From NCBI GenBank assembly GCA_963662285.2, contig CAXXMV010000002.1, positions 1,760,001 through 1,824,000 on the forward strand: 64,000 nucleotides of DNA, in the 5' to 3' direction. The position numbers and the translations under genes were made by a program. The notes below the pieces were generated by a model that was not told the DNA's origin, did no database searches, and saw only the letters and a list, made by a program, of their open reading frames with translations. Positions 501 through 57,701 of the stretch are shown here, one piece after another (the first letter of the stretch is position 1; each line of letters opens with the position of its first letter). The DNA comes from a bacterium (GTDB lineage: Bacteria; Hinthialibacterota; Hinthialibacteria; Hinthialibacterales; Hinthialibacteraceae).

Positions 501-2852
501 TTACTTGTGCTGCATCCACTTATTACATTGGGTTTCGTCGCTTTTATTGACATGGAAATTCATGGTAGATATTTCAACTCCATCGGCTAATGTATAAGGC
601 GCGTCGCTGAAATTAACTGTTATTATGGTTCCATTATCAAATTCCGTCTGCTGTATGCTGCGGTCAGCGGTCAAGAAACGGTGATCGGTCATTTCGCTGT
701 AACCGACGCTGCGAACTATAGGGCATACATTCTTATAACTCTGCACGAAACGGTCTTTATTTTCATTCCATATTGCCTTGTTGAACATGAACATGGGGGG
801 AGTGGCGTAGAGGATATTAAACAGGTCGCGTTTATCCCATAGACTTGGTAGTTTGTTATTGTAATCTCCCCAATACCATTGCGCGACGACGCAATCATGA
901 TAAACCAGTTCCCAGAGCGGCAGTCGGTAATCATGACCGAGTTGGAATTTTGCAACTCTCTCAGGAACCTCATCCCAGATATCCTGAATATGTCTTCCCG
1001 CATCTGGAACGCGGTAAGGCCCCAGGCTGAGCATTCCTTCAAAATAATGCGCGAATGGAACCGCCGCATCGTGTCCCGTCTCTGAACCGCATACCAGCTT
1101 CATCTCTTCCGAAACCAGGCGCAGCAGCTCCATTTTCCAAAAGCGGCTTTCGCTGCGCGTCATGGGGTGGTCGGGATGATAATCCTCGCGCCACGGACTG
1201 GCGGTGGTGGTATCAATAAAACGCGAGCGGTAAGCATGGGTTTGCAACTCATTCGATATGCGAGGGCGGGCGTAATCCAACGCTTTGCAATCGCTCAACA
1301 CTCCGCAGGGATACTTTTTCCCATCTTTGCCCGTCACTTCCCAGCCGCGCCGCCAGTCGCCATTTTTATCCAGCATGATATCATCCGGCCACCCGTCTGT
1401 AGTCCAATCCGGGTGGACGCCATTGAGATACTGGAAATAATCGGGATTCATTAAATCCTGATAAATATCATAGCGGCTGGTTAATACATTACGCTGATTC
1501 ATCTGTTGAATATTATTGGGAGATTCACGGTGGCTCCACAGAATACGTTCGATGCCCAATTGCTGCATCTCATTAACATAACTCAGCGCCCCATCCCAAC
1601 ACCAGACGTTGACCGCTCCGATAAGTAGATCGACATTAGGATTCTCTTCACGCTTTTTGGCAAGTGTTTTGAATATCCCGGTTTCCTGCGCATGAGCGCG
1701 GTAACGCTTGCACATGGCGACATGGCCGCCTTTATCGAAAAAGACGTAGCGAATCCTGCGCGGGTAGCCGAATTTTCCTTTTTGAGAATCCCATTCGGGA
1801 GCGACGCAGAGCAGATCATTGATTCTCGTGATGCGGATAGCGGCGTCATCAGCTGTTTCGAGAATAGCCATGTGTCCAGCTGCGCCATCAGTAGCGCCCC
1901 AGAACCCCATGCAAATGCCATGACCTCCATAGCCAATCAGGCGGCCTGTATTAATGGTCAAGTCATCAACCGGATAAGATATCCCCTCGTTCATGGGAAT
2001 AACCAGATAACTCTCTTTATCGGTAACGAAGGGATTCGGGAATGAAAGCGAACCGGGTAAATCCCCGGCGCCGGTAATGGTTAGAAGCAGTTCAGGGCGT
2101 GATTGCGCGATTGCGAATGTGACATTTACATCAGCCCCGGTCTGGGCGTAAAACCAGGTTGTATCCAAACGGTCTTCATTTACCTCAGCGCTTTTTAAGA
2201 CCATCATGTCGTGGTATGGTTGCTGCTCCCATATCTGACTGGTTCTGGAATCTTTAACCTTCAGGATTCCGGTCTCAACCTCCAGATCAACTGATATCAG
2301 AGCATTTTTGAAATTGATGATGTCGGGCAGGTCGCTCCGGAAATCGCTGATGTTACCCTCTTTGGTCAGTTTGAAATCATCGATCCACACCGTGGCCGGA
2401 CCATGTCCTATGATGCGTGGATATATTTTCTGAACATTATGAGGAACGAAAAAGCGGCTGGTCAAATGATTCCAGTCTTGGTCGCCGCTCAGGTTTTGTC
2501 CGGCGTAACTCCACTCGATAACTTCATCATTTTCATCGCGGGTTATCACGCAAATCTCAGCGTTTCCTGTACCGGTGATTTTGATCCATCCATCAAGTAT
2601 AAAGAAATCGCCGTTTCTAACATCAAAATTGACGCCGGGATTAAAACTCCAATCCTGGGCGCCGCTATGTTCAATGCGGGCGGAGTTATTTCCGGTATGA
2701 ACCACATCATTATCAATGCTTACGCTTCCAACTCCCGCATCGCGCGTCCAGAGTGATCCCCAACCTTGCATGCCTGATTCAAAGTCGCCATTGGGAACCA
2801 GGTTGGTCGCGCTAATTACTGTGATAAATGATAAGGCCGCCAGAAATGTCAT
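501..2852 (-). CDS. Secreted glycoside hydrolase (GH129/GH101-like) with N-terminal CBM4/9-type domain; ends in the shared C-terminal motif
   Basis: Signal peptide, then NLVPNGDFESG...VWIDDFKL (CBM4/9-like), then a catalytic region with RFIDTTTASPWREDY and GSETGHD; ends TQCNKWMQHK. Confidence 0.7.
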   Translation of the reverse strand: MTFLAALSFITVISATNLVPNGDFESGMQGWGSLWTRDAGVGSVSIDNDVVHTGNNSARIEHSGAQDWSFNPGVNFDVRNGDFFILDGWIKITGTGNAEICVITRDENDEVIEWSYAGQNLSGDQDWNHLTSRFFVPHNVQKIYPRIIGHGPATVWIDDFKLTKEGNISDFRSDLPDIINFKNALISVDLEVETGILKVKDSRTSQIWEQQPYHDMMVLKSAEVNEDRLDTTWFYAQTGADVNVTFAIAQSRPELLLTITGAGDLPGSLSFPNPFVTDKESYLVIPMNEGISYPVDDLTINTGRLIGYGGHGICMGFWGATDGAAGHMAILETADDAAIRITRINDLLCVAPEWDSQKGKFGYPRRIRYVFFDKGGHVAMCKRYRAHAQETGIFKTLAKKREENPNVDLLIGAVNVWCWDGALSYVNEMQQLGIERILWSHRESPNNIQQMNQRNVLTSRYDIYQDLMNPDYFQYLNGVHPDWTTDGWPDDIMLDKNGDWRRGWEVTGKDGKKYPCGVLSDCKALDYARPRISNELQTHAYRSRFIDTTTASPWREDYHPDHPMTRSESRFWKMELLRLVSEEMKLVCGSETGHDAAVPFAHYFEGMLSLGPYRVPDAGRHIQDIWDEVPERVAKFQLGHDYRLPLWELVYHDCVVAQWYWGDYNNKLPSLWDKRDLFNILYATPPMFMFNKAIWNENKDRFVQSYKNVCPIVRSVGYSEMTDHRFLTADRSIQQTEFDNGTIITVNFSDAPYTLADGVEISTMNFHVNKSDETQCNKWMQHK

Positions 2853-2889: not shown

Positions 2890-4605
2890 TTAATGCATCA
2901 GCCAGTTTTGGATATTGGTAAAGTCTGAATTGACCGCCGGAACCAGCAGGTGCGATGGATACTCGGGCGATAGATGCAGGGTAGTTATGGCTTCAGCCGG
3001 GTTGCCGTCCTGACCCAATGCTTGATAAAGCGGATTAAGATCAAAACGGGGATAATTGGTATTGGCGATGATGATGCGCATACGGTGTCCTTGATTGAAA
3101 ATAAGGCTGGTGCTCCAGCAATCTACCTCGTATTTATATACTTCGCCTGGAGTGATAGATGACGGATCTGTTTGCGAATCACGGAAACTGGCGCGGGCGA
3201 CGCCGTCGCAAACCAGCATGGAACGGCCATCGGGATATACATCAGTTACCCGGACGGTAAGGTCGTTGTCTGTTAGATTCGTGGCGGCATATAGAATGGC
3301 TTTGATGCGACCGGTTATTTCGAGCGGCTTATCCAACGCCGCAGTGCTGAAGACCAGCACGTCATTGCGATTCTCGAGGGTTGTTTGATCTTGTGGGCCT
3401 GCGGAAATTTCAAGATTGGCGCCGCCCTTGGTTGTAACCGGGGCGGTAGGATTCATTTGCAATTGGCTGGTTTGGGATGCTTCAGGAGCATTGATAGAAA
3501 GGGCGCCATCCTGCTGCAAATAAAAGGCGACCTGCTGGGCTTCAATGGGCCATACATCACTGGTGCGCCATTCATTGCCTGTGGCGTCAGCCGCATCAAC
3601 GTCGCCCATGACATAATATCTGACTGCTGGTTCGCTCATGATGCCATTGGCGGTTCCCTTCATCCAGTAATCGTAAAAATCGATGGTTATATCGAGTTCC
3701 TCTTCAAATTGAGAATTGGCGGGGTAAGTCAATTGTCCCTGCTGCGCTTCGAATTCATTGACGTGAGTCCATGGACCCATAACCAGTTTCTGGTTATTCC
3801 TGGCGCCTTCGGCGCCCAGGGTTTGCCGTCCGGTAAAACCGCTTAATGTTCCTTCTTGGAAGCAATCATACCAGCCGCCGACAAATAAGGCGGGGACGTT
3901 AACCTCCGCATGTTTTGAAGCAATGTCCATTTGCGCCCAGAAATCATCATAGGTTTTATGTTCTTTAAAAAGTGGTAGATGTTTCGTCAAGCCAGTTCCG
4001 GCGAACCATCCTTCGATTAGAGATTTACGGAAAACGCCGTTTTGATATGCGGCTTGACCGTACATGGTTGTCGGTGCGTAACCTATGACCTGACAAACCA
4101 GATGCGGTGGAAGAGTCGGCGCCATCAGATTCTGAGTGATGCCCATGGCAGATGGACCAAAGGTTCCAACTTTGTCATTGCACCATGACTGCGCCGCAAT
4201 CCACTCAACCGTATCGTATCCATCCTGGTTGTCGCCCCAACCATCATTGACGAAAACCATGTCGTCGCCTTCAGAGTCATAGCGCCCCCGTACATCCTGA
4301 ATCACCAGGGCATAGCCCTTCAACAGAATTAATTGCAGCATCTCCAGGCTTTCATCATCTTTTCCATAAGGCGTGCGGATTAATATAGTGGGAAACGGCC
4401 CGCCCAAAGGCGACTTATGCACGGTGGTTGATAGTTTGGTTCCATCACGCATGGGAACCATGTGAGTTTCATCAAATATCCCCTGTTGCCGCATCTTGGC
4501 GTTCCATTCATCATAAGAGAACGGCTTGGTTTGTTTTGAATATGCTTGATTGACAAAAGTTATAACTAGTAAAATTAACAATAGTCCCGGAATTTTCTTC
4601 ATCAC
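2890..4605 (-). CDS. CocE/NonD family serine hydrolase (peptidase S15), secreted; ends in the shared C-terminal motif
   Basis: VPMRDGTKL, RTPYGK, QDVRGRYDSEG, GPSAMG nucleophile elbow, GGWYD, MGPWTH; signal peptide; ends TNIQNWLMH. Confidence 0.9.
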   Translation of the reverse strand: MMKKIPGLLLILLVITFVNQAYSKQTKPFSYDEWNAKMRQQGIFDETHMVPMRDGTKLSTTVHKSPLGGPFPTILIRTPYGKDDESLEMLQLILLKGYALVIQDVRGRYDSEGDDMVFVNDGWGDNQDGYDTVEWIAAQSWCNDKVGTFGPSAMGITQNLMAPTLPPHLVCQVIGYAPTTMYGQAAYQNGVFRKSLIEGWFAGTGLTKHLPLFKEHKTYDDFWAQMDIASKHAEVNVPALFVGGWYDCFQEGTLSGFTGRQTLGAEGARNNQKLVMGPWTHVNEFEAQQGQLTYPANSQFEEELDITIDFYDYWMKGTANGIMSEPAVRYYVMGDVDAADATGNEWRTSDVWPIEAQQVAFYLQQDGALSINAPEASQTSQLQMNPTAPVTTKGGANLEISAGPQDQTTLENRNDVLVFSTAALDKPLEITGRIKAILYAATNLTDNDLTVRVTDVYPDGRSMLVCDGVARASFRDSQTDPSSITPGEVYKYEVDCWSTSLIFNQGHRMRIIIANTNYPRFDLNPLYQALGQDGNPAEAITTLHLSPEYPSHLLVPAVNSDFTNIQNWLMH

Positions 4606-4857: not shown

Positions 4858-5451
4858 ATGAAAAAAGGATTTACGCTAATTGAATTGCTGATAGTCGTTG
4901 CGATTATTGGCATTCTGGCAGCCATCGCAGTACCAAACTTTTTGAACGCGCAGATCAGGGCGAAATGCGCACGGGTTGTTTCGGATATGAAAACTATCGA
5001 AACAGCGTTATCGATGTATCGACTGGATAACAATGCTTTTCCACCAGCGAACCTAGCTCGCGTGCCGGGAAGCGGTGATCATTATCATCCCAATGAAATT
5101 CGCTTCTACCGTTTGACGACTCCAGTTTCTTTTATGAGTTCCGTCCCGAAGGATCCATTCGCCAATACAGCCAACCAAGCAGATTTTGCTCAGTGGGGTT
5201 CAGCCTATGATTACGTCAATAATTATGGCGGCGAGCATAACGGCGGATGGGGTCATGTCTGGCGCTTAAACAGTTGGGGGCCGGACACAGTTAACGGTTG
5301 GGGCGGTCAACGTACTGGTACATGTCCTGGCGGCGTTCCAGATTTTATTTATAACACATCTAATGGTCTGGTCAGTGTTGGAGACATCGTTTGGGTTGGC
5401 GCTAAAGATTCTCAGACAACCAATTTCTGCAATATCATCAATGGCATTTAA
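4858..5451 (+). CDS. Prepilin-type N-terminal cleavage/methylation domain protein (GspG-like pseudopilin)
   Basis: KKG|FTLIELLIVVAIIGILAAIAVPNF, YRLDNNAFP, VPKDPF, SWGPD; GAGG RBS upstream. Confidence 0.9.
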   Translation: MKKGFTLIELLIVVAIIGILAAIAVPNFLNAQIRAKCARVVSDMKTIETALSMYRLDNNAFPPANLARVPGSGDHYHPNEIRFYRLTTPVSFMSSVPKDPFANTANQADFAQWGSAYDYVNNYGGEHNGGWGHVWRLNSWGPDTVNGWGGQRTGTCPGGVPDFIYNTSNGLVSVGDIVWVGAKDSQTTNFCNIINGI

Positions 5452-7397: not shown

Positions 7398-7414
7398 TAG
7401 GTATGTTCCTTTAA

Positions 7415-12188: not shown

Positions 12189-12773
12189 TCAAATTCCGAT
12201 CAAACTTTTATCGCAGGGATAAGCGGTTGGCGGCCCCAGGCGGTACATGTCGCCCCAGCTGCGCAGGCCGTTGGATGCATTATAGAGCGGCGCCGTGCCA
12301 TAGGTATCCGCGTTGTTATCCGGTCCAGCGCCGGAGATTTGCCATTCAGAGCAGCGCAGGCTGCTGCCAACTATGGCCTGTTTGCCATTATGAATTACAG
12401 ACCATGCATCTACGTAATCATAAGTAACATAGGCTTCATGCTGGTTTGCAACAATGCGCTGGCCGTATCGCGATTTCAAGAAAGGGTCTTGGGGGACGGA
12501 GGCGATATAGGATATTGGCGTAGTTAAGGGGATCAGGCGCCGGTTGACTGGATTGATGTTGACTCCATCGGGGCCGACGAATAGGGGATAGCGGTTGTTA
12601 TCCAGGCGGTACATCTCCAGCGCGGTTCCAATGGATTGCATTTCCGATTCGGCTTTGGCGATTTGCGCCCTCACCTGCGCGTTTAAGAAATTGGGCACGG
12701 CGATAGCGGCCAACACGCCGATTATGGCGACTACGATTAATAATTCGATTAGAGTGAAACCTTGGTTATTCAT
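12189..12773 (-). CDS. Prepilin-type N-terminal cleavage/methylation domain protein (GspG-like pseudopilin), paralog of 4858..5451
   Basis: MNNQG|FTLIELLIVVAIIGVLAAIAVPNFLNAQ, LTTPISYIASVPQDPF, GAGPD, YNASNGL..GD; GGGAG RBS before ATG 12773. Confidence 0.9.
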   Translation of the reverse strand: MNNQGFTLIELLIVVAIIGVLAAIAVPNFLNAQVRAQIAKAESEMQSIGTALEMYRLDNNRYPLFVGPDGVNINPVNRRLIPLTTPISYIASVPQDPFLKSRYGQRIVANQHEAYVTYDYVDAWSVIHNGKQAIVGSSLRCSEWQISGAGPDNNADTYGTAPLYNASNGLRSWGDMYRLGPPTAYPCDKSLIGI

Positions 12774-12808
12774 GAATCGCTCCCTACTAGATTTTTTTTC
12801 TATATTTG

Positions 12809-12852
12809 GAGAAAAAAACCTCAATAAATCGAGAAAAAAACCTCAATAAATC
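12809..12852. repeat. Perfect 22-bp tandem duplication upstream of the pilin-like gene
   Basis: gagaaaaaaacctcaataaatc x2. Confidence 0.9.
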
Positions 12853-16469: not shown

Positions 16470-16669
16470 GTTGATTCCTTTTTGATAATAAGATAATGCG
16501 CATCTATACAATGCAATCCGAAAATATGGATTCATCTTATCAAAAAAGGGATTGGATTAATATAGGGTATTTGATAAAAGTAGGAGAAAAAATTGGCTTT
16601 TACGAAAACCTAACTTGATAATGCAAGAATATAATCTCTCTATCATTCCTTTTCTTTATAAAACGCAAA

Positions 16670-17617: not shown

Positions 17618-19015
17618 ATGGGTAAAAAGTTTTGTCTATCAGTAATGATGTTATGCATCATAGCGGTTCCGGCATCTATGGCTCAGAGTCTTACCTACGA
17701 GATAAGTGAACCTGTTATATTGGGGGATCTTCTAACGGCGCGGGCCAATATGTCGATAAGCACTCATGAACCTATAGCGCTTCTGGTTACAGTGGACACT
17801 TCCAATTATTATGAATTCGCCGATCCCATCACGGGCGAAATCGCACAGGCTGCGGTTTTGGGATTCTTTTACAATACCATCACGCTTGAACCTATTGGCG
17901 AACCGTTCATCATCGTGGGGAATCCCGGCAGTGATTTTGATACTCTGGATGTGGATTACAACCCCGTCTCACAGCAATACATTGTCGCAGCCTCCGCGAA
18001 TAATTATCTTCCCGGGGGAGGCCAGGCCAATTTACTCTCCATCGTCAGTTCATCCACCGCCGAACCAGTTGTCAAAGCCTGGGTATACGAACCGGACAGC
18101 GCAGAAAGCTTTGACGATATCGCCGTCAGTTGCAGTTCTAACAACGGCAACATTCTGATGGTTTCAGAACGTAATTTTGCAGGTGAAGGCGAAGGCGTCA
18201 TCGGAGCGCTTTTTGATCAGGATGGAAACCTCCTGACTCCAAATTTCGGACGGCTCGATCAACTCCAGCCGACTGGTGATGAAGATGATCCTGACGTCGT
18301 GTTCCTGCCCGTTAACGATGTCTTTCTGTTTTTAGTGAACACCGATGATGGCACTTATCAAGACCGGATAACCGGCGCGGTCATTTTGCCTGTGCCTGAT
18401 GCGGACGGTAATATGCAAATCGGTGAGCAGCAGATTTTGGGATCCGAACGTAAACCAGCTACAGCTCAAGGCCATCCGGCAGCCATCGAGAATCCTTTTA
18501 ACAGCGAACTGGTCGGCGTATTCGATTACTCCAATGGCGCTGATGGCGGCGATGTATTCTACTTCACGGTTGGCGGCGCCCCGGATTATGTCCTATCCGA
18601 AGCCCGCGATCAGGTTGCTTACCTTGAAGCCGCTGGCAGTAATCCGGTCAACCAGCGCCACCCCCAACTCGCCGCCGATCCCAGCAGCGGCGTAATAGTA
18701 GTCGCATACAACGTCAACAATGATACCAATGCGCTCGAGGCAGGCGGCATTCTATTCACTGTCTTGGGGCCGGATGGCGGGGTTTTGCCTGACAACGGAA
18801 ATTCGGTCGGGACGGATCAGGTCATCTATAAAATGACGCCGGATGAATTAGGAGTCATCAGCAATGACGCCAATAACTATAACATGCTCTACGATCCTCA
18901 CAGTGATTCGTTTATTTGCGTCTATGCCACCAACGAACAATACACCAAAGCTGTTCGTCTGAAGATCACTTCAAATCATCTACCCGTGAGCGTTGATTCG
19001 TGGATGTTGCATTAG
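17618..19015 (+). CDS. Secreted acidic protein of unknown function; ends in the shared C-terminal motif
   Basis: AAGGAG RBS 7 nt before ATG 17618; signal peptide ending ASMA|QS; D/E/N-rich beta-type body; ends VSVDSWMLH. Confidence 0.8.
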   Translation: MGKKFCLSVMMLCIIAVPASMAQSLTYEISEPVILGDLLTARANMSISTHEPIALLVTVDTSNYYEFADPITGEIAQAAVLGFFYNTITLEPIGEPFIIVGNPGSDFDTLDVDYNPVSQQYIVAASANNYLPGGGQANLLSIVSSSTAEPVVKAWVYEPDSAESFDDIAVSCSSNNGNILMVSERNFAGEGEGVIGALFDQDGNLLTPNFGRLDQLQPTGDEDDPDVVFLPVNDVFLFLVNTDDGTYQDRITGAVILPVPDADGNMQIGEQQILGSERKPATAQGHPAAIENPFNSELVGVFDYSNGADGGDVFYFTVGGAPDYVLSEARDQVAYLEAAGSNPVNQRHPQLAADPSSGVIVVAYNVNNDTNALEAGGILFTVLGPDGGVLPDNGNSVGTDQVIYKMTPDELGVISNDANNYNMLYDPHSDSFICVYATNEQYTKAVRLKITSNHLPVSVDSWMLH

Positions 19016-35286: not shown

Positions 35287-35296
35287 TGTTCTCAGC

Positions 35297-47318: not shown

Positions 47319-47383
47319 TTTATTATTAGTCCAAATTTATCAATATGTTATTATCATGTATAAAATGTAAGATGCGAGAGAGG

Positions 47384-47851
47384 TCAGTCGGTCATTTCAC
47401 GCACGAAACGTTGTGCGTCTTCTACTTTATCGGGATCATCTATCGGCTTTTGGTTAGCATTGGTTGATGACGCAGCCTCATTTGATGAATGGGCCTCTTC
47501 TTCGCTGGAATAACCATACTCATCCTGGTTTTCGCCATATTCCGAATAATCGCTGGAGTTACTGCCGCCCTCTGCCGCATCCGTATCTTCATTACCAGTA
47601 TTATAGGGATCATGCTGGTATTCAGGATCACCATAAGTATCATCGCTGGTATAGGAACTGGTCTTGGAACTGGGTTTATCCCATTCGCTCATATCCAGCT
47701 GTCGTTGCAACTCGTTGCTGGCTTCCCGGAACATCTTCATCGCTTTGGCTATATACCGCGCTAATTCGGGCAGCCGGTTGGGTCCGAAAACGATCAAAGC
47801 CACTCCAAGAACAACTACTAATTCAGCGGGTCCAATACCTAAAAAATTCAT
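47384..47851 (-). CDS. tatB: TatA/TatB family translocase subunit with long acidic tail
   Basis: IGPAELVVVLGVALIVFGPNRLPELAR..FR; directly upstream of tatC. Confidence 0.85.
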   Translation of the reverse strand: MNFLGIGPAELVVVLGVALIVFGPNRLPELARYIAKAMKMFREASNELQRQLDMSEWDKPSSKTSSYTSDDTYGDPEYQHDPYNTGNEDTDAAEGGSNSSDYSEYGENQDEYGYSSEEEAHSSNEAASSTNANQKPIDDPDKVEDAQRFVREMTD

Positions 47852-49235: not shown

Positions 49236-49237
49236 CG

Positions 49238-50329: not shown

Positions 50330-50538
50330 TTTATCCATTAATCGTTTCACTATCTCTTCATTATTATTCTCTTTAGCAAGATCAAGCGCGGTCTTGCCAT
50401 CATTGTTTTACATCTGTTTATTGAAAAATACAACATTTTACATAATAATTAGTTTGTAAAATCTTAATTGTGATATCAATATAAGAGTCAGGAAATTTAT
50501 TTATTCTACTGTTGATAATATTTAAGGAGAAATGTCTA

Positions 50539-52314
50539 ATGAGGATTATTTTTGTTATTTCAGCGCTATTGGTATCTTTCAATTTGACGGTAATTGCCCA
50601 GAATATAAATACTACTGATAATTTTCCCGACCCGAATTTCAAGGCTTTTGTGGAAGATATTATGAAGGTTCAGAAAGGTGGAGAATTCACCGCAGCTGAT
50701 GCGGCAGAACATTCGGCCCTGATTTTTAATTGTAATAATAAAAGAATAGAGGATTTAACAGGAATCGAATATTTCAAAAAAATCGAGGAACTGGATTTTT
50801 CATATAATCAGATAACTAATGTTGATTTATCATCAAATAAATCTCTAACATCATTGACTTGTTATAATAATCAATTGGAGGGATTGGATGTAACCTCAAA
50901 TACGATTTTGAAGTCTATAACCTGTTACAAAAATAAATTGAAGGAACTGGATTTATCTCACAACAAGGATTTGACATCATTATCATGTGGTCTAAACATG
51001 TTGGCCACTATGGATGTATCAAACAACCCGGAACTTAGTTATTTGTCTTGCTTCAATAATAAGATATCCAAGTTGGATTTATCATCTAATACGGCTTTGA
51101 CATCCTTGCTTTGTTACAATAATCAATTAACCGAACTGGATACGTCATCTAACCCGTCTTTAGAAATCTTGCATTGTAGTAATAACCTGCTGCAGAATTT
51201 GGATTTATCATCTAACGGGGATTTAACTGAATTATGGTGTCACCGTAACCAGTTGAAGACCCTGAATCTTCCCCCTAATACGGATTTAGTATATCTGCTA
51301 TGTGATGATAATCAATTAACGGAACTGGATGTATCGGGCAACACGGCATTGGAAAAATTTGATTGTTCATATAACCAGTTAACGCAGCTGGATGTATCGT
51401 CCAATACAGCGCTGACAAAATTATCCTGCGGCGCCAACCAATTGACATCATTGGATATTACCAATAACAAGGCTTTGCGCTATGCGTCGTGCGGCAATAA
51501 TCAACTGACGGAGTTGGATGTATCGGCCAACAAGGAATTAGTGGATTTGAATTGTTACAACAACCAATTAACCAATCTTGATTTATCCTCAAATGAGTAT
51601 TTATCCTGGCTGCATTGTCAACATAACCAGTTAACCGGATTGGATGTTTCGTTCAATCCCATATTAAAAGGTCTGATGTGCAATCATAATAAGTTATCGC
51701 AAATAGATTTCTCCATGAACGGTCTAATGTTTTGGCTGAATTGCGCTAATAACCTTTTAAGGGAATTGCCTTTGTCATCAATCATTAACTTGCACTGGCT
51801 GTATTGCGAAAATAATTTATTGACAGAATTGGATTTGTCGTTATCCCTTAATTTACAAAGAGTGATATGCCATAACAACCAATTAACCGAGCTGGATTCA
51901 TCTAATATCAGACACCTGATTTGGCTGGATTGCCATGACAATCTGTTATCCGAACTGGATGTTTCATCGCAGGTGAATCTGAGCAGATTGATTTGCCATA
52001 ACAACCAATTGGCAGAATTGAATTTGAAGAATAATACTTTTCTTCGGTTTTTGGATTGTAAAAATAACCAAATCAATGATATTACAAGTTTTCATTCTAT
52101 ACGTGATTTGAGGGCTGCAAATCTTTCATACAACAACCTCGATTATGGAGATCGAAACGATATTCAATTGCTCAAAAATCATTTGGGCGATCCCGCCTTT
52201 TCTGACACTGTAACTGATTGGTTGATATACGGCCTGGAGTATTCTCCACAGAATAATATCGATCCTTATGAACTGGATACAAACGTTTATGATTGGATGC
52301 TGCATGAGGAGTAG
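50539..52314 (+). CDS. Secreted leucine-rich repeat protein (21-aa Cys-containing InlJ-type LRRs); ends in the shared C-terminal motif
   Basis: Signal peptide; FPDPNF N-cap; about 20 LxxLxCxxNQLxxLDxSxNxx repeats; YSPQ C-cap; ends TNVYDWMLHEE. Confidence 0.92.
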   Translation: MRIIFVISALLVSFNLTVIAQNINTTDNFPDPNFKAFVEDIMKVQKGGEFTAADAAEHSALIFNCNNKRIEDLTGIEYFKKIEELDFSYNQITNVDLSSNKSLTSLTCYNNQLEGLDVTSNTILKSITCYKNKLKELDLSHNKDLTSLSCGLNMLATMDVSNNPELSYLSCFNNKISKLDLSSNTALTSLLCYNNQLTELDTSSNPSLEILHCSNNLLQNLDLSSNGDLTELWCHRNQLKTLNLPPNTDLVYLLCDDNQLTELDVSGNTALEKFDCSYNQLTQLDVSSNTALTKLSCGANQLTSLDITNNKALRYASCGNNQLTELDVSANKELVDLNCYNNQLTNLDLSSNEYLSWLHCQHNQLTGLDVSFNPILKGLMCNHNKLSQIDFSMNGLMFWLNCANNLLRELPLSSIINLHWLYCENNLLTELDLSLSLNLQRVICHNNQLTELDSSNIRHLIWLDCHDNLLSELDVSSQVNLSRLICHNNQLAELNLKNNTFLRFLDCKNNQINDITSFHSIRDLRAANLSYNNLDYGDRNDIQLLKNHLGDPAFSDTVTDWLIYGLEYSPQNNIDPYELDTNVYDWMLHEE

Positions 52315-52360: not shown

Positions 52361-54469
52361 ATGAAACCTGTTATAGGAATTATTGTGGTGTTTCTTACTT
52401 TAAACGTGAATGGCTTTGCTCAGAATATCAATACGACTGAAAATTTTCCAGATGCCAATTTTAAGTCTTATGTTGAACAATATATGGGAATTAATTCAGG
52501 TGGAGTATTTACAGCAGCAGAAGCGTATGTCATGACCGACTATTTTAATTGTGAAGGAAAAGAGATAAGTGATTTAAGTGGAATAGGTTATTTTAAGAAT
52601 ATAACTAACCTGAATTGCTACAATAACAAATTATCGTTACTGGATGTGTCGACCAACACAGCTTTGACTACTTTATCATGTGGAAATAACCAGTTAACGG
52701 AGCTGGATATATCGTCCAATACGGCTTTGACTCATTTATTGTGTGGCAATAACCAGTTATCAGAGCTGGATGTATTTAATAACAAAAGATTGACTTTTTT
52801 AAATTGTAGATATAACCAATTAAGCGAAATAGATGTGTCATCCAATACGGCTTTGACTTCTTTATCGTGTGGAGATAATCAGTTAACAAATTTGGAATTG
52901 TCATCCAACTCTGCATTGGCTGCATTATCATGTGAAGAAAATGTGTTGAAGGAATTGGATATATCGTTTAATACTGTTTTGAATAAGGTGAATTGTAATA
53001 ATAACCAGTTAGCGGAATTGGATGTGTCGTCAAACACGGTATTGTCTTCCTTGTCGTGTGAAGATAACCAGATAACTGGACTGGATATATCGTCAGCGAC
53101 AGGATTAATATACTTGAATTGCGGTTGTAACCAATTGAAGGAATTGAATGTATCGACTAACACCGATTTGGAAAAATTGTATTGCTTTAAAAATCAGATA
53201 GCAGTACTGGATACTTCGTTCAATGAATATTTGTATTTGCTGGATTGCTATGATAATGAATTAAGTGAACTGACTTTATCGTGCAACAGAGCTTTAACAT
53301 ATTTAAATTGCTCTCAAAACATGTTAAAGGATTTGGACTTAAGGTTTAACATAGAATTGCGTAGGTTGTATTGTCATAATAACCAAATATCTGATATATC
53401 AAGTTGGGCATCCCATCCTAATATTAAAATCGTAGACGTAAGGAATAACAGCCTGGATAATGGTGATTGGGCGGATATAAGATTGATGCTAAATCTATTG
53501 GGAGATCCTGCGTTTAATAATGAGAGGCTTGTATCTGGATTTGCTTATTCTCCTCAAGATTATTTTGATCCCAATGATTTAGTAAATATCAATACAATGG
53601 AAAACTTTCCTGATGCAAATTTCAAGGATTATGTTGAAATATATATGGGAGTTGCTCCAGGTGGACAATTTACCACTGCAGAAGCTGCATCAAAAACAAT
53701 TGAATTTTTTAATTGTAGTAAAAAAGAAATAAAGGATTTATCTGGAATTGAGTATTTTGTGAATTTACAACCTCTATATTGTAATGATAATCCGTTAACC
53801 ATGATGGATTTGTCGTCTAACACGGCTTTGACTTTTTTATCATGCGAAAATTGTCAGTTAACGGTTTTGGATGTATCGTCAAATACGGCTTTGGAATCAT
53901 TGTATTGCCACTATAACCAATTATCAGTTTTAGATATATCGCAGAATAAGGCTTTGGATTCATTGGTTTGCTCAAATAACCGGTTAATTGAGCTGGATGT
54001 GACTTCTAATCGGGATTTGACTTTTTTATCGTGTGAAGATAATCAGTTAAAAGTTCTGGATGTATCGTATAACACATTTTTGGAAATATTGGTTTGCTCA
54101 AATAACCGGTTAGTTGAACTGGATGTGACGGCTTGCAAGAATTTACATTCTTTAAGATGCGACAGTAACAAGATATCGCAAATCGATTTGTCAAATAATA
54201 ATAATTTAAAAATATTTGATTGTAATAATAACCAAATACAAGATATATCAAGTTTGCTTTCTCTAAGTAATCTAATATCTGTAAATGTAATTAATAATAA
54301 CCTGGATTATAGTGATTGGGATAATATACAATCACTGCTTGAAAAATTGGGATATCCAGATTTTTTAGATAATGGTAATCTTCGAGTTGGTTTGGCTTAT
54401 TCTCCACAAAACAATTTCGATCCCTATGTACTTGATACCAGCGTTAAAAATTGGATGTACCATGAATAA
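52361..54469 (+). CDS. Secreted LRR protein made of two complete capped LRR modules; ends in the shared C-terminal motif
   Basis: NINTTENFPDANF cap repeated at aa 409 (nt 53585); ends TSVKNWMYHE. Confidence 0.92.
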   Translation: MKPVIGIIVVFLTLNVNGFAQNINTTENFPDANFKSYVEQYMGINSGGVFTAAEAYVMTDYFNCEGKEISDLSGIGYFKNITNLNCYNNKLSLLDVSTNTALTTLSCGNNQLTELDISSNTALTHLLCGNNQLSELDVFNNKRLTFLNCRYNQLSEIDVSSNTALTSLSCGDNQLTNLELSSNSALAALSCEENVLKELDISFNTVLNKVNCNNNQLAELDVSSNTVLSSLSCEDNQITGLDISSATGLIYLNCGCNQLKELNVSTNTDLEKLYCFKNQIAVLDTSFNEYLYLLDCYDNELSELTLSCNRALTYLNCSQNMLKDLDLRFNIELRRLYCHNNQISDISSWASHPNIKIVDVRNNSLDNGDWADIRLMLNLLGDPAFNNERLVSGFAYSPQDYFDPNDLVNINTMENFPDANFKDYVEIYMGVAPGGQFTTAEAASKTIEFFNCSKKEIKDLSGIEYFVNLQPLYCNDNPLTMMDLSSNTALTFLSCENCQLTVLDVSSNTALESLYCHYNQLSVLDISQNKALDSLVCSNNRLIELDVTSNRDLTFLSCEDNQLKVLDVSYNTFLEILVCSNNRLVELDVTACKNLHSLRCDSNKISQIDLSNNNNLKIFDCNNNQIQDISSLLSLSNLISVNVINNNLDYSDWDNIQSLLEKLGYPDFLDNGNLRVGLAYSPQNNFDPYVLDTSVKNWMYHE

Positions 54470-54628: not shown

Positions 54629-54857
54629 ATTCACAGTATCATTTGATATAACATCTATAACTTCAACCATTTGGCAGTGGTCTGATTAACGCTTCTGCAT
54701 CTAAAATAAGACTTGCCACCCATGCGTAAGTGGGTTAGAGTAGTCAAACAGAGGCAAATATCATGGAAACCTTCTGTGCATATTTTGGCAAACTTGAATA
54801 TCTTGGTGAAAAATGCAATACTTTGTTGATTCAATATATAAAAGGAGAAGGTGTACA

Positions 54858-57701
54858 ATGATTGCTACAACTCCAGTTCGTTATTTGGCATCTATTCGGG
54901 CGTTACAGATCAGGATTCTATTCCTGGCGGGGTTCTTAATTTCACTCTCTGCTGTTACGGCTTCGGCCGGGGATGTGATGATCGACTTCAATTCCTTGGG
55001 GTCATACCTGGGTAAGAATACATTCAACTATCAGGGATTCCAATGGGTTAATTTCGCGAGCGGTCCCGGGTATTACGGGAATCCCGGACGGGACGTATAT
55101 ACTGGAAACACCTATCATGATTCCTATACGATTAGATGGCTCGGAAGCAATAATTATTTTTTAAAGAGTATGCAAATATGTTGGTTCCTGCCGAATACGT
55201 CGCAACCAGTTGCCGTATTCACGGGATATCGCGACGGAGCGCAGGTATACACAAAATCGGTTGCCCTAAGCGGTTATAGATCATTTAAGACGCTCAGTTT
55301 TAATTGGCTGGTTGACACAATAGTAATCACGGGCAACCGGGGCAACAACTCCGGCGACATGAACGGCGTTGCGATTGATATCGATAATTTTTCCTATCGC
55401 GATCTAAGCGATAATAAGGCCCCGGTGATCAGCCAAGGCGATTCGACTACAGTCGACATGTCTGAGGATGGATCCCCAACACTCTTCAGCCTTACACTGA
55501 ACGCCGCAGATCCCGAAGGGGACGCGATCAACTGGAGTCTCGCTTCGCCCGCCGCCCATGGCGCAGCCGAAGTCAATGGCTCAGGCGCCAATATATCTGT
55601 CAAATACACGCCGAACGCCAACTACAACGGCGACGACAGTTTTCAAGTTCGCGCGGATGACGGCTTTGAAGCCTGGGACACGATTACCGTTCAGGTAAAT
55701 ATCGCTGCCGAGCAGGATGCGCCTGACGCTGTGGATGACCAGATTTCAATCCCCGCAAACGCATCCGCAACGATTCCTGTGCTCGATAACGATTCCGATA
55801 TCGATGGGGATACGCTTACGATTCAGACATTTACTCAGGGCGTATACGGACGAGTTTCCATAGATGGGACAAATCTGATTTACACAGCTAATCCCTTTCA
55901 CCGGGGAGCCGATGAATTCACCTATACAATACAGGATGGTAATGAAGGCGTCGACACGGCTACTGTGTTTGTGGATGTCACCGCGCCTGTTTTCAATATC
56001 ATGGCGTCTCTGCCGAAAACCGGTATTGTGGAGAATTATGGCCGGGAAGTGAATAACGGAGTGCTGTTGGCCCTGGAAGACATCAACAATCAGGGCGCAA
56101 TGCATTTGGATCTGCAAATTGAGGACAATGAAAGTTCCTTAACGAATGAGGAGGACTCGTTCAATGCGGCAACCGGCAACCAGGAAATACTGGCGGTTGT
56201 GGGAGGAGTTATTTCGGCTCATGCGCTTGAGATGGGCAAGATCGCCAGCAACATGGAATTGCCCCTCTTTTCGCCTACGGCGACTTCCCAGATCCTCAAT
56301 TCCAGCCAATACAATCAATATGTGATCAAAATTTCGCCGCTGGATAATTATCAAATCGAGGCGGTTCTATCTCAATTGGAAAGTTTGAACATACAGAAAA
56401 TCGTCCTGCTCAACGAAGACTCCCCCTATGGAGAAGGATTCTATGATGGGCTTTCCGCCGCGGAGGAAACGATCCAAGTACTCGAGCATTATGCCTTTCC
56501 TTATGGTGAATTGGACTTGGAGACGGCGATTCCTATTATTCGGGATGCCAGCGTTGCGGGCGCCCAAATCGGCGTAATCGCCGCCTATGATCAGGATGCC
56601 AATCGCTTATTGAAACGGCTGTCCGAAATCCCGGAATTGATGAATTTCGGCTGGATTATGACCGATGGGGCGGCCATAGAAGCGACGCTCGAGGAGTTGC
56701 CGTTCGATAATGAACTCTATGTTCCCCGGTTATATGGCCTGACTCCCAGCATTGCGGATAATTTGGATAAATCGCAAGATTTCAAATCGAAATTCGTAGC
56801 TCAGTTTTCCGAAAAACCCGAATGGCTTTCGTATTATGGATACGATTCCCTGATGGCTTGCGCGGCCGCGCTGAATCGGGCGACGGAACAAACCCGGGCG
56901 GGTATTTGGGATGCCATCAGCAATCTACAATATGATGGAGCAACTGGACAAAAATGGTTCGATGAGAAGGGATTGCTTCAAAGCGCCGTTTATGATGTTA
57001 AAAAAGTGATCAACGGCGAATTTGTAATTTTGAGCGAATTACGGGTAAAACAGCCGGGCGTACAAAACTCTTCCGCCGGGAAGGTGCAAACCAGATCGAT
57101 GGAGCCATTGAACGGTGAATCCGATCTCCTTTTCGAGGGATTCAGATACACGCTGCCGGGCGCCGATCAACATATCGGCCATATAGCGGGCGGCGCAGGG
57201 CCGGATGGCTCGTGGATCGCCCAGTCGCGGGATTATAACGAGGGCCAGGTTCTGATGGCGTTTTATGAAGACGCCGTGCGGGGACTGACAGACAATGGCG
57301 AGCCTTTCGGTTTTCAAGATGGGATTACTTATAATCTAGCCTTCGATATGAACCGTACAACTGTGGTAAGACAAGTACCGTCGGGCGATTCCATTTTGGA
57401 GGTGAAAGTCACCTTGGTGTGCCGGTATCGTGATGGAAACGGTGTTCAGCGTTTCGCCAACAAAGACCTGGTTGAAAAGGCTGTAACCTTTGCAGAATGG
57501 CCGCAGGAAGGCCCGTTTCTGCTGGATATACCGGTTCCCTACAGTTCAGTGGCCCCCGTCGGCGCCGATTACGCCGCTGAGGATCAACTGTTGAATTGGG
57601 AAATCAGCCTATTAAATGCCGCACATCAGGCAATCACCCTGAAATCCGTATCCATCATCCAGGGGGATACAACGGATATCAAAAATTACATGCTGTATTA
57701 A
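54858..57701 (+). CDS. Large secreted protein: unknown N-domain, two Ig/cadherin-like (Big_9-type) repeats, type 1 periplasmic-binding-protein domain, unknown C-domain; ends in a variant of the shared motif
   Basis: YTPNANYNGDDSF and PDAVDD..VLDNDSDIDGDTL..FTYTIQDG; GVLLALEDINNQG..AVVGG..SPTAT..YGEG..YGYD..YDGATG..FDEKG; ends TDIKNYMLY; AAGGAG RBS. Confidence 0.85.
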   Translation: MIATTPVRYLASIRALQIRILFLAGFLISLSAVTASAGDVMIDFNSLGSYLGKNTFNYQGFQWVNFASGPGYYGNPGRDVYTGNTYHDSYTIRWLGSNNYFLKSMQICWFLPNTSQPVAVFTGYRDGAQVYTKSVALSGYRSFKTLSFNWLVDTIVITGNRGNNSGDMNGVAIDIDNFSYRDLSDNKAPVISQGDSTTVDMSEDGSPTLFSLTLNAADPEGDAINWSLASPAAHGAAEVNGSGANISVKYTPNANYNGDDSFQVRADDGFEAWDTITVQVNIAAEQDAPDAVDDQISIPANASATIPVLDNDSDIDGDTLTIQTFTQGVYGRVSIDGTNLIYTANPFHRGADEFTYTIQDGNEGVDTATVFVDVTAPVFNIMASLPKTGIVENYGREVNNGVLLALEDINNQGAMHLDLQIEDNESSLTNEEDSFNAATGNQEILAVVGGVISAHALEMGKIASNMELPLFSPTATSQILNSSQYNQYVIKISPLDNYQIEAVLSQLESLNIQKIVLLNEDSPYGEGFYDGLSAAEETIQVLEHYAFPYGELDLETAIPIIRDASVAGAQIGVIAAYDQDANRLLKRLSEIPELMNFGWIMTDGAAIEATLEELPFDNELYVPRLYGLTPSIADNLDKSQDFKSKFVAQFSEKPEWLSYYGYDSLMACAAALNRATEQTRAGIWDAISNLQYDGATGQKWFDEKGLLQSAVYDVKKVINGEFVILSELRVKQPGVQNSSAGKVQTRSMEPLNGESDLLFEGFRYTLPGADQHIGHIAGGAGPDGSWIAQSRDYNEGQVLMAFYEDAVRGLTDNGEPFGFQDGITYNLAFDMNRTTVVRQVPSGDSILEVKVTLVCRYRDGNGVQRFANKDLVEKAVTFAEWPQEGPFLLDIPVPYSSVAPVGADYAAEDQLLNWEISLLNAAHQAITLKSVSIIQGDTTDIKNYMLY

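What the first reader, a model, noticed from the sequence alone, without database searches (positions are those of the whole stretch)
501..57701. Shared 9-aa C-terminal tag on six secreted proteins: candidate undescribed sorting or surface-anchoring signal
Seen in sequence: the C-termini align as TQCNKWMQHK* (GH129-like, 501-), TNIQNWLMH* (CocE, 2890-), VSVDSWMLH* (17618+), TNVYDWMLHEE* (LRR1), TSVKNWMYHE* (LRR2) and TDIKNYMLY* (Ig-PBP protein). The consensus is [TV]-x-[VIC]-x-x-[WY]-[ML]-x-[HY], at or within 2 aa of the stop. The carriers belong to five unrelated families scattered over 57 kb. All have Sec-type signal peptides, and no cytoplasmic or Tat-signal protein in the window carries the motif. 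Established knowledge: LPXTG, PEP-CTERM, GlyGly-CTERM and MYXO-CTERM include a TM helix plus a basic tail, the T9SS CTD is a roughly 80-aa domain, and the BAM beta-signal marks barrels, so none of these fits. Inference: a lineage-specific recognition peptide for a second export step, covalent attachment, or docking to a surface scaffold. I know of no description of it but cannot search. The cognate machinery is not identifiable in this window.
Basis: partly seen in the sequence, partly recalled or inferred. Interest (0 to 1): 0.88.

Follow-up and report, generated by a model that had tools for sequence, protein, structure and literature searches.

The report
Nine-residue tryptophan tail on exported proteins
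About 175 unrelated exported proteins of this uncultured bacterium, six of them in this window, end in the same nine-residue tryptophan-containing tail, which looks like an undescribed address label whose reader is still unknown.

Summary
All six C-termini are as written. Five score 16-26 bits on a genome-derived tail matrix. The GH129-like one is a conserved Cys variant scoring -7.8.

"WM" is only a subset. The genome-wide consensus is T-x-V-x-[D/N]-W-x-[L/I]-[Y/F/H]-COOH. It closes 150 of 5590 called genes exactly and 25 more with 1-2 extra residues. Only 14 matches lie among 2.07 million internal positions.

- Carriers: 152 of 175 have signal-peptide-like N-termini, against 1902 of 5415 other genes. 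They fall into 82 similarity groups.
- Only the last nine residues are conserved. They model as low-confidence coil.
- Distribution: abundant through the genome's own phylum, probably OLB16/Hinthialibacterota. No excess was found in 151 genomes of the phylum of a Pirellulaceae MAG (presumably Planctomycetota).
- In one peptidase family the tail sits where homologues elsewhere carry other C-terminal anchors.
- No T9SS or exosortase parts were found. Several type II secretion-like clusters were.

Best reading: an undescribed second-step sorting tag. Reader unidentified. This scan already reported the same tail from three other windows of this genome.

The parts
504..533 (-). Tail of the GH129-like protein (gene 501-2852): TQCNKWMQH plus K. 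Divergent Cys variant of the tag.
   Evidence: Translation. Matrix score -7.8. The C-x-x-[W/Y] variant recurs in 7 of 120 listed homologues, while the other 113 end right after the catalytic domain.
2893..2919 (-). Tail of the CocE/NonD S15 peptidase (gene 2890-4605): TNIQNWLMH-COOH.
   Evidence: (16.2 bits). PepX_C ends at residue 553 of 571.
18986..19012 (+). Tail of the beta-propeller-like protein of no known family (ORF 17492-19015; likely start 17618, the first codon of the 465-aa P0001): VSVDSWMLH-COOH.
   Evidence: 22.1 bits. 35 of 59 homologues keep the tail. W is at least 90% conserved. In the AF2 model, numbered on the 465-aa P0001, the last strand is residues 443-450 and the tail is coil with pLDDT 84 then 58.
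52279..52311 (+). Tail of LRR protein 1 (gene 50512-52314): TNVYDWMLH plus EE.
   Evidence: (25.8 bits at offset 2).
54437..54466 (+). Tail of LRR protein 2 (gene 52361-54469): TSVKNWMYH plus E.
   Evidence: (16.3 bits at offset 1).
57672..57698 (+). Tail of the Big_9 / periplasmic-binding-domain protein (gene 54813-57701): TDIKNYMLY-COOH.
   Evidence: (19.5 bits).
4858..5451 (+). GspG-like pseudopilin paralogue, divergently adjacent to the tagged CocE gene. Context only, not shown to be part of the system.
   Evidence: N_methyl. TIGR01710 GspG 68 bits, below cut-off. Tagged genes sit next to such a gene in 25 of 175 cases, against 64 of 1029 for untagged signal-peptide genes.
12189..12824 (-). 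Second GspG-like pseudopilin paralogue in the window. Context only.
   Evidence: N_methyl plus T2SSG. TIGR01710 71.6 bits.

Best explanation
The six window tails belong to a phylum-restricted, nine-residue, extreme-C-terminal tag with consensus T-x-V-x-[D/N]-W-x-[L/I]-[Y/F/H]-COOH. It is appended directly to the last folded domain of about 175 otherwise unrelated proteins. These are Sec-exported (rarely Tat-exported), mostly not lipoproteins, and soluble.

I read it as an address label for a step after inner-membrane export. A periplasmic or outer-membrane receptor would recognise the exposed, flexible tail at or next to the free C-terminus. It would then pass the folded cargo on to outer-membrane translocation or surface display. 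Of the machines present I favour one of the type II secretion-like secretin systems.

Shown: the motif, its positional restriction, its link to signal peptides, the diversity of its cargo, its lineage restriction, its disorder in one model, and its occupancy of a choice-of-anchor slot.

Inferred: that it is read at all, that the reading happens in the periplasm, and that a T2SS-like route is the destination.
For: - Terminal restriction: 150 exact and 25 near-terminal matches, against 14 internal in 2.07 million positions.
- When a residue follows the tail it is D or E in 16 of 25 cases. That fits a requirement for a carboxylate just after the aromatic residue.
- Signal-peptide-like N-termini: 152 of 175 against 1902 of 5415, Fisher p = 4e-44. 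Allowing alternative starts: 168 of 175 against 2429 of 5415.
- Lipobox-like motifs are depleted: 5 of 175 against 119 of 1316.
- Cargo is unrelated: 82 BLAST components over full length, and 120 for the last 100 residues with 91 singletons.
- A random 60 of the 175 gave LamG 6, CotH+LTD 6, CBM9 3, binding-protein-plus-Ig 3 and S8 2. C1 and S15 peptidases and others occurred once, and 27 had no Pfam hit.
- A random 60 untagged signal-peptide-like proteins gave periplasmic or envelope types instead: GFO/IDH/MocA 4, solute-binding 2, OmpA, BamB-like, a secretin, and exo-glycosidases GH20/97/106/120 totalling 5. Several were cytoplasmic false positives of my heuristic.
- Information sits only in the last nine residues, about 20.6 bits in all (my sum of the nine column values); every upstream column is 0.53 bits or less.
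- The tail is coil with pLDDT 84 then 58 on an otherwise 91.8 model.
- Added-on nature: GH129 homologues from other phyla stop at the domain end, and 7 of 120 listed carry about 12 extra residues holding the variant tail.
- Choice-of-anchor: among C1 peptidase homologues the 9 closest of 120 listed carry the tail. Others end in a hydrophobic helix plus basic residues, in Gly-rich Cys-containing tails, or in dockerin-like repeats (classes judged by eye).
- Conservation is at the protein level. The DNA matches use varied synonymous codons.
- Lineage: 13-66 pattern matches per genome in all 20 genomes of the family including this one (controls 0-3). Two other families of the order have 4-31, and three deeper families 1-18.
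- Outgroups: 6 outgroup genomes had 0-3. Two named MAGs labelled Candidatus Omnitrophota, SURF_12 and Zod_Metabat.949, had 35 and 41. Pirellulaceae, Tepidisphaeraceae and Latescibacterota MAGs had 0. None of 151 genomes of the Pirellulaceae MAG's phylum exceeded 3, level with the controls.
- Machines: at least 3 T2SS-like clusters, a T4P cluster and a Tad cluster, 8 secretin matches, about 113-119 GspG-like paralogues, and 1 Omp85.
- One Tat-type carrier fits a system that takes folded periplasmic proteins.
Against: - No reader was found, and no gene cluster is dedicated to tagged genes.
- The T2SS link is circumstantial. T2SS are ubiquitous while the tail is not, and no linear T2SS signal is known (my knowledge).
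- The enrichment next to GspG-like genes is only about 2.3-fold over other signal-peptide genes.
- Tail and pilin counts correlate (rho 0.57 over 35 genomes), but both track genome size (rho 0.80 and 0.72 within the family).
- The family with the most pilin-like genes (166-206) has few tails (4-11).
- The one lineage-specific T2SS-cluster protein I followed (642 aa, G000:C6:875343-877271) was not found in 9 of 9 genomes of the deeper families. Some of those still have tails: G031 18, G032 14.
- In orthologues of window protein 3 the last residue drifts (Y/H/F/Q/R/K/N), and up to 5 extra residues occur. That weakens a strict free-carboxylate model.
- My signal-peptide test is a loose heuristic: it flags 35% of all other genes.
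- There is no experimental evidence of localisation, cleavage or binding.
Confidence: 0.55

Rival explanations
1. Surface-retention or docking tag. The tail does not drive export. After secretion it holds the protein non-covalently on the cell surface, by inserting as a strand or aromatic plug into an abundant outer-membrane, S-layer or scaffold protein. It would work like a minimal dockerin or a donor strand.
For: - Both faces of the nine residues are conserved: T, V, D/N on one side and W, L/I on the other. That suits a strand buried in a groove.
- Cargo is rich in lectin-like, CBM, LRR and Ig-like modules typical of surface proteins.
- In the C1 peptidase family the same slot holds anchoring signals and dockerin-like repeats in other lineages.
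- Cohesin-domain proteins exist in the genome, next to a TPR-STN-secretin.
Against: - No scaffold with repeated acceptor modules was identified.
- Strand insertion alone does not explain why the tail must lie within 2 residues of the C-terminus.
- Two giant tagged proteins carry a dockerin-like loop at the N-terminus as well as the tail, so the tail may not be their attachment device. This rests on a weak regex and n = 2 of 10 hits.
Confidence: 0.2
2. Protease-recognition tail. The nine residues are a C-terminal ligand for a PDZ-bearing periplasmic protease (CtpA-type S41, Tricorn-like S41, or HtrA). It would serve either as a pro-sequence trimmed during maturation, as in the D1 precursor, or as a degron that clears cargo failing to leave the periplasm.
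For: - Extreme-C-terminal position, aromatic last residue, hydrophobic penultimate residue and a strand-like pattern are what PDZ domains of DegS, DegP, Tsp and CtpA bind (my knowledge).
- The position after W (p-2 of the peptide, p0 being the last residue) varies S/M/E, the PDZ class-defining position.
- The genome encodes 4 HtrA-like proteins, 1 CtpA, a 1197-aa exported Tricorn-like S41 protease with a PDZ, and RseP with 3 PDZ domains.
- The Tricorn-like gene lies beside a tagged gene and a pilin-like gene.
Against: - These protease families occur in most bacteria, which lack the tail, so they do not explain the lineage restriction (controls).
- His as last residue (22 of 150) and the conserved T and V 7-9 residues upstream are unusual for PDZ ligands (my knowledge).
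- No conserved cleavage site precedes the tail.
- A degron on 3% of all genes, including non-enzymes, has no obvious rationale.
Confidence: 0.12
3. No dedicated function. The tail is a structural cap or a sequence spread by recombination among secreted-protein genes, kept by inertia.
For: No function has been demonstrated. Short motifs can spread by gene conversion among paralogues.
Against: - It is carried by 82 unrelated sequence groups.
- It is kept in orthologues down to 43-45% identity.
- It is encoded by varied codons.
- It is unstructured in the model.
- It is confined to the terminus with about 4000-fold enrichment.
Confidence: 0.03

Closest known systems
Tripartite C-terminal sorting signals and their sortases (LPXTG/sortase, PEP-CTERM/exosortase, GlyGly-CTERM/rhombosortase, MYXO-CTERM/myxosortase)
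   Same: A many-to-one C-terminal label on dozens to hundreds of unrelated exported proteins, restricted to a lineage. It occupies the same 'choice-of-anchor' slot.
   Different: No hydrophobic helix and no basic cluster. The whole signal is nine residues ending at the carboxylate. PEP-CTERM and exosortase models found nothing in this genome (the PEP-CTERM control was silent everywhere).
T9SS C-terminal domain (TIGR04183 / PF18962) with SprA, PorV, PorU
   Same: Marks Sec-exported hydrolases and adhesins for a second step across or onto the outer membrane. Cargo classes are similar.
   Different: The CTD is a folded domain of about 70-100 residues. Here nothing upstream of the last nine residues is conserved. 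TIGR04183, SprA and PorV found nothing in the genome (two of the three controls were silent everywhere).
PDZ ligands: C-terminal peptides read by DegS, DegP, Tsp/Prc and CtpA
   Same: Extreme C-terminus, aromatic or hydrophobic last residues, and a likely requirement for a nearby carboxylate. This is 'works like' at the level of recognition.
   Different: Those peptides signal stress or processing, not sorting. Binding was not tested here.
PTS1, the peroxisomal C-terminal tripeptide read by the TPR domain of PEX5 (eukaryotes; from my knowledge)
   Same: A very short, uncleaved, extreme-C-terminal signal on many unrelated, already folded proteins.
   Different: Eukaryotic, three residues, unrelated sequence. 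No TPR reader is shown here, though a TPR-STN-secretin and TPR proteins sit in secretin clusters.
BAM beta-signal of outer-membrane barrels
   Same: C-terminal, aromatic last residue.
   Different: Carriers are soluble enzymes and a beta-propeller-like fold, not barrels. The hydrophobic spacing differs. Barrel-like proteins of this genome end differently, for example ...LMYKF and ...LRLRF. There is only one Omp85.

Membership tests
Tripartite sortase-type signals (LPXTG, PEP-CTERM, GlyGly-CTERM, MYXO-CTERM) | Signature motif followed by a transmembrane helix and a basic cluster at the C-terminus | tested here: not met
   Conservation covers only the last 9 residues, which end at the carboxylate. 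No hydrophobic stretch and no basic tail.
Tripartite sortase-type signals (PEP-CTERM) | Cognate processing enzyme in the genome (exosortase) | tested here: not met
   PF09721 gave no match in G000 while its control rang in 1 genome. TIGR02595 gave no match, but its control was silent everywhere. Sortase, rhombosortase and myxosortase were not searched.
T9SS C-terminal domain | Folded C-terminal domain of about 70-100 residues matching TIGR04183/PF18962 | tested here: not met
   No TIGR04183 match in G000 (control silent). No Pfam CTD among the 66 tagged proteins scanned. Every column upstream of the last 9 residues carries 0.53 bits or less.
T9SS C-terminal domain | T9SS machinery (SprA/Sov, PorV) | tested here: not met
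   TIGR04189 and NF033710 gave no match in G000, which is 92.5% complete. The SprA control was silent everywhere, so this result is weaker.
BAM beta-signal | The carrier is an outer-membrane beta-barrel whose last strand is the signal | tested here: not met
   Carriers are hydrolases, lectin-like, LRR and beta-propeller-like proteins. The tail is coil in the model.
Type I secretion C-terminal signal | No N-terminal signal peptide; uncleaved C-terminal signal of about 50 residues | tested here: not met
   152-168 of 175 carriers have signal-peptide-like N-termini.
PDZ-ligand C-terminal peptide | Extreme C-terminus with a hydrophobic or aromatic last residue and a free carboxylate | tested here: met
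   150 of 175 end exactly with the motif. The last residue is Y 93, F 27, H 22 of 150. The extra residue is D or E in 16 of 25 cases.
PDZ-ligand C-terminal peptide | Binding to a PDZ domain | not testable with these tools
PDZ proteins of the genome are listed.
WxL domain of Gram-positive surface proteins (recalled) | C-terminal domain of about 150-200 residues with two WxL motifs (PF13731) | tested here: not met
   No such Pfam hit among the 66 tagged proteins scanned. Only 9 residues are conserved.

The most novel reading that the evidence does not exclude
The tail is the first linear, PTS1-like secretion signal for a type II secretion-like pathway. A nine-residue C-terminal peptide would be read at its free end by a component of one of the phylum's secretin systems. 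That would make an otherwise conformational, never-defined T2SS targeting code explicit and transplantable.
Probability: 0.22. Interest if true: 0.92.

Novelty: new variant of a known kind. Interest (0 to 1): 0.74.

Why it matters
C-terminal sorting signals are the main handle for predicting which bacterial proteins reach the surface or the medium. Every described class is either a tripartite signal cut by a membrane enzyme or a folded domain. A nine-residue tail ending at the carboxylate, carried by about 3% of the genes of a whole candidate phylum, would be a different architecture with an unknown reader.

It immediately gives a one-line predictor of the exoproteome of these uncultured degraders of complex organic matter. 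It also gives a bait peptide for fishing out the receptor. If the route is a T2SS-like machine, it would make the long-open question of how such systems choose their substrates directly testable.

Tried and rejected
1. Shared upstream C-terminal domain: rejected. BLAST of the last 100 residues gives 120 components, and every column upstream of the tail carries 0.53 bits or less.
2. T9SS, PEP-CTERM/exosortase: models found nothing. Three of the five controls were silent everywhere, so absence is not proven.
3. Dedicated neighbouring machinery. Families enriched within 3 genes of tagged genes were GspG-like pilins (30 of 79), Hsp20-like proteins (5 of 5, but only two loci), FGE-sulfatase-domain proteins (11 of 24) and hybrid sensor kinases (8 of 16). 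None is a plausible reader.
4. Sub-types of the tail (S, M or E after W) marking genomic neighbourhoods: rejected. 42 same-class pairs of 159 within 30 kb, against 40.8 expected.
5. GspC-like proteins with a hidden PDZ. The three small proteins between GspM and the secretins have only a PilP/GspC-HR-like segment by eye, and no PDZ by Pfam.
6. The 642-aa T2SS-cluster protein (G000:C6:875343-877271) as reader.
   - It lies next to the secretin in 21 of 23 relatives' loci.
   - It has no Pfam or NCBIfam family.
   - Its model (pLDDT 75.9) resembles lipoprotein TP0453 (Foldseek E = 4e-5).
   - It was found only in the order: 20 of 20, 4 of 4 and 1 of 2 genomes in its three families. It was found in 0 of 9 genomes of the deeper families, which still have some tails. 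It remains a lead only.
9. Dockerin-bearing proteins as a test of export against attachment: too few regex hits, 10 proteins of which 2 are tagged.
10. The 1382-aa exported protein at 58775-62923 as a repeat scaffold: no internal repeats.
11. Literature. Searches for the phylum name, sorting-signal terms with Omnitrophota, sortase-type terms with tryptophan, DUF1559/prepilin terms, and the tetrapeptides themselves returned nothing describing the tail.
Full report
**What is in the window.** The family labels hold:
- 501-2852 (-): GH129/DUF5696.
- 2890-4605 (-): a CocE/NonD S15 peptidase whose PepX_C domain ends 18 residues before the stop.
- 17492-19015 (+): a protein of no Pfam or NCBIfam family. 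Its true start is probably 17618, the start of the 465-aa database protein P0001 (my query began at 17612, two codons upstream).
- 50512-52314 and 52361-54469 (+): two paralogous LRR proteins.
- 54813-57701 (+): a Big_9/cadherin-like plus Peripla_BP_6 protein.

Five have classical signal peptides by my heuristic. The GH129-like one has a short hydrophobic N-terminus without a basic residue, and its homologues from several phyla share this. No other gene of the 51 I called in the window carries the tail.

**The motif is genome-wide and broader than reported.** The window is G000:C2:1760001-1824000 of a 7.29-Mb, 8-contig genome.
- Among stop-to-stop ORFs of 200 residues or more, the commonest C-terminal tetrapeptides are WSLY (24), WSIY (11), WSLF (8) and WQLY (7).
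- 149 of 5643 ORFs of 150 residues or more end in [W/F/Y]-x-[L/I/M/V]-[H/Y/F]. Nearly all of them have T-x-V-x-x in front.
- I called 5590 genes with a dicodon model, covering 88% of the genome, and built a 12-column matrix from the tails.
- That matrix scores at least 12 bits at 150 exact C-termini. It also does so at 25 positions with 1-2 residues following, and at only 14 of about 2.07 million internal positions.
- On a set thinned to 111 sequences with unrelated C-terminal regions, information is confined to the last nine residues. Values are T 2.7, small residue 1.1, V/I 3.0, x 0.5, D/N/E/G 1.4, W 5.4, S/M/E 1.5, L/I 1.9 and Y/F/H 3.0 bits. No upstream column exceeds 0.53 bits.

So the 'WM' tails of this window are the M subset (32 of 150) of one tag. 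Five of them score 16.2 to 25.8 bits. The GH129 tail scores -7.8 because Cys replaces Val and Gln replaces Leu. That Cys form recurs in 7 of 120 listed GH129 homologues, so it is a conserved family variant and not noise. The residue after W is not clustered along the genome: 42 same-class pairs of 159 within 30 kb, against 40.8 expected.

**Who carries it.**
- 152 of 175 tagged proteins have a signal-peptide-like N-terminus, against 1902 of 5415 other genes. With alternative starts allowed the figures are 168 of 175 against 2429 of 5415. The heuristic is loose, so the contrast matters more than the absolute rates.
- Lipobox-like motifs are rarer than in other signal-peptide proteins: 5 of 175 against 119 of 1316. 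One carrier has a convincing twin-arginine signal.
- The carriers form 82 BLAST components over full length. Their last 100 residues form 120 components, 91 of them singletons.
- A random 60 of the 175 gave Laminin_G_3 (6), CotH with LTD (6), CBM9 (3), binding-protein domains fused to Ig-like modules (3), subtilases (2) and beta-helix proteins (2). Single C1 and S15 peptidases and other families also appeared. 27 had no Pfam hit.
- A random 60 of 997 untagged proteins passing a stricter signal-peptide filter gave a different picture. They included GFO/IDH/MocA oxidoreductases (4), solute-binding proteins (2), OmpA, a BamB-like protein, a secretin, and exo-glycosidases of GH20, GH97, GH106 and GH120 (5 in all). 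There were also esterases and several cytoplasmic false positives.

The tag therefore goes with proteins of extracellular or surface type and is missing from periplasmic and envelope housekeeping proteins. Overlaps exist: one LamG, two beta-helix and one FGE-sulfatase protein among the untagged.

**Nature of the tail.**
- Of 59 homologues found for window protein 3, 35 keep the tail. All 35 are 454-494 residues long and 43-100% identical to the query.
- In these 35 the tail follows a conserved ...TSDH-x-P, and W is at least 90% conserved. The last residue drifts (Y, H, F, Q, R, K, N), and up to five extra residues occur.
- Of the other 24, most (17) are 600-800 residues long, and 19 end in ...[F/Y]-[F/Y]-R-x(1-5).
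- An AlphaFold2 model built on the 35 sequences has mean pLDDT 91.8 and is all-beta. Its last strand is residues 443-450. Residues 451-465 are coil, with block pLDDT 84 and then 58. The tail is thus an exposed appendage, not an element of the fold.
- In the GH129 family, homologues labelled Planctomycetota, Verrucomicrobiota, Poribacteria, Armatimonadota and Sumerlaeota stop a few residues after the conserved ...PMGFHV. The seven variant-tail members add about 12 residues.
- When something follows the tail in G000 it is one residue in 24 of 25 cases, and D or E in 16 of 25, against a 12% background.

**Choice of anchor.** For the tagged C1 peptidase (751 aa), the nine closest of 120 listed homologues (41-100% identity) carry the tail. 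The next two carry weak versions. The remainder end in other C-terminal modules. These are a hydrophobic helix plus basic residues, Gly-rich Cys-containing tails of the ...CFIATAAY kind, dockerin-like D-x-N-x-D-G repeats, FG-GAP-type ...GDIPVTR endings, or ...[F/Y]YR[V/L] endings. One of them is named by NCBI a 'choice-of-anchor J domain-containing protein'.

I assigned these classes by eye. The equation of the first two with exosortase-type and Cys-type sorting signals rests on my knowledge and on the abstract of a preprint seen in a search listing (10.1101/2023.06.07.544157). This is the pattern that has flagged sorting signals before, and the tail sits in that slot. An earlier report of this scan said the slot is held by the T9SS CTD in other phyla. 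I did not see a CTD in the three families I examined.

**Lineage.** I used a DNA pattern for T-x-V-x-x-W-x-[L/I/M/V]-[Y/F/H/L] followed by TRR (the three stop codons, plus TGG). All 20 genomes of the family, including this one, have 13-66 matches against reversed-pattern controls of 0-3.
- Two further families of the order: 4-31.
- Three deeper families of the class: 1-18. G031 has 18 and G032 has 14. G028 has 1 against a control of 1.
- Six outgroup genomes: 0-3.
- A looser pattern could not lift the deep families above background, though individual bona fide tails are visible there.

The matches use many synonymous codons, so the constraint is on the peptide. The closest named relatives are MAGs labelled Candidatus Omnitrophota, and one homologue is labelled Candidatus Hinthialibacter sp.. 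A paper I searched for passages (PMC9324843) states that SURF_12 belongs to OLB16, renamed Ca. Hinthialibacterota, formerly counted in Omnitrophota. It never mentions secretion or C-terminal motifs: those terms have 0 occurrences.

The genomes holding SURF_12 and Zod_Metabat.949 have 35 and 41 matches (controls 1 and 1). Pirellulaceae, Tepidisphaeraceae and Latescibacterota MAGs have 0. None of 151 genomes drawn from the Pirellulaceae MAG's phylum has more than 3, level with the controls. The phylum assignment of G000 is my inference from these names.

**Machinery.**
- Models for SprA, the T9SS CTD, PorV, PEP-CTERM and exosortase found nothing in G000, which is 92.5% complete. For SprA, the CTD and PEP-CTERM the control genomes were silent too, so those three negatives are weak.
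- The genome has eight secretin matches.
- By Pfam it has at least three T2SS-like clusters with GspG/H/J/K, L/M-like and GspD components. It also has a T4P cluster, a Tad cluster, and a cluster with a TPR-STN-secretin, a PilM-PilN fusion and two cohesin-domain proteins.
- It has a single Omp85.
- It has 113-119 GspG-like pseudopilin paralogues of about 200 residues. Two are in the window, at 4858-5451 and 12189-12824.
- Tagged genes lie directly next to such a gene in 25 of 175 cases, often co-directional with gaps under 100 bases. The rate is 64 of 1029 for untagged signal-peptide genes and 191 of 5296 for all other genes.
- Pilin-like genes are expanded across the whole phylum: 28-206 pattern matches, against 0-2 in outgroups. 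Their number tracks genome size as the tail count does, and the family richest in them is poor in tails.
- PDZ proteins are of the ordinary kinds: four HtrA-like, CtpA, RseP, a Tricorn-like S41 protease, an M61 peptidase pair, and one beta-helix protein with a C-terminal PDZ.

**One lead followed.** A 642-aa protein of no family lies downstream of the large secretin, at G000:C6:875343-877271. It is next to the secretin in 21 of 23 relatives' loci. It evolves fast, at 17-46% identity. Its model (pLDDT 75.9) shows two alpha/beta-wrap modules that resemble the Treponema lipoprotein TP0453 (Foldseek E = 4e-5, TM 0.46 on the target).

A profile of 22 sequences finds it in 20 of 20, 4 of 4 and 1 of 2 genomes of the three families of the order. 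It finds it in 0 of 9 genomes of the deeper families and 0 of 6 outgroups. Some deep-family genomes still have tails. So either it is not required, or it has diverged beyond detection there.

**Verdict.** The best-supported reading is an undescribed, very short, extreme-C-terminal sorting tag for a step after inner-membrane export. Its recognition probably involves the free end of the chain, and its destination is probably a T2SS-like route or the cell surface.

My five literature searches and the NCBIfam and Pfam scans returned no description of it. Three earlier follow-ups of this scan reached the same core conclusion from other windows of this genome, each counting about 170 proteins. I had derived the broad motif independently, before reading them.

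Noticed in passing
window 4858-5451 (+) and 12189-12824 (-); genome-wide in G000: About 113-119 GspG-like pseudopilin paralogues of about 200 residues share a conserved GspG-type core, ending in a YD-x-SNG-x-x-S-x-GDI motif. The expansion is phylum-wide: 28-206 pattern matches per genome, against 0-2 in six outgroups. They are about 2.3-fold enriched next to tagged genes.
   Followed up: partly
proteins P0005-P0016, P0046-P0052, P0055-P0059; P0194, P0227: Homologues from other lineages, some labelled Lentisphaerota or Kiritimatiellae, end in a recurrent ...[F/Y]-[F/Y]-R-[L/V/T] followed by 1-5 residues. This may be the last strand of a domain, or another short C-terminal motif of PVC-type bacteria.
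   Followed up: no
G000:C6:875343-877271 (locus L083:8346-10271, -): A fast-evolving 642-aa protein of no family is conserved next to the large T2SS-like secretin. Its predicted fold has two TP0453-like modules, and it is detectable only within the order.
   Followed up: partly
G000:C8:417001-433000 (locus L085): A cluster encodes a 1057-aa TPR-STN-secretin, a PilM-PilN fusion, a TPR protein and two paralogous exported proteins with a cohesin domain.
   Followed up: no
G000:C1:564048-566764 (L082) and G000:C3:300296-302609 (L086): One T2SS-like cluster has a split secretin, with the N0/N domains and the secretin domain in separate adjacent ORFs. Another locus has two short tandem secretin-domain genes behind a TPR protein.
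   Followed up: no
window 15150-16535 (-), 26578-27861 (+), 46188-47851 (-): Two GFO/IDH/MocA oxidoreductases with twin-arginine-type N-termini lack the tail. TatC and TatA genes lie in the same window.
   Followed up: no
window 58775-62923 (-): A 1382-aa exported protein has no Pfam family. It has Pro/Thr-rich linkers and an N-terminal module shared with at least a dozen other G000 proteins. It carries no tail.
   Followed up: partly
G000:C1:1156453-1158240 and G000:C8:72781-74106: Two tagged proteins also contain an internal tail-like match, 141 and 309 residues from the end. It looks as if a domain with its own tail had been added behind an older tail.
   Followed up: no
window 5556-9304 (-), 34060-39582 (+), 45176-46246 (-): Polysaccharide-synthesis genes lie between the tagged genes. 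They include two Glyco_trans_1_2 proteins, a Wzt-type ABC ATPase, methyltransferase and GT4 proteins, Polysacc_synt_2 and a dTDP-sugar epimerase.
   Followed up: no
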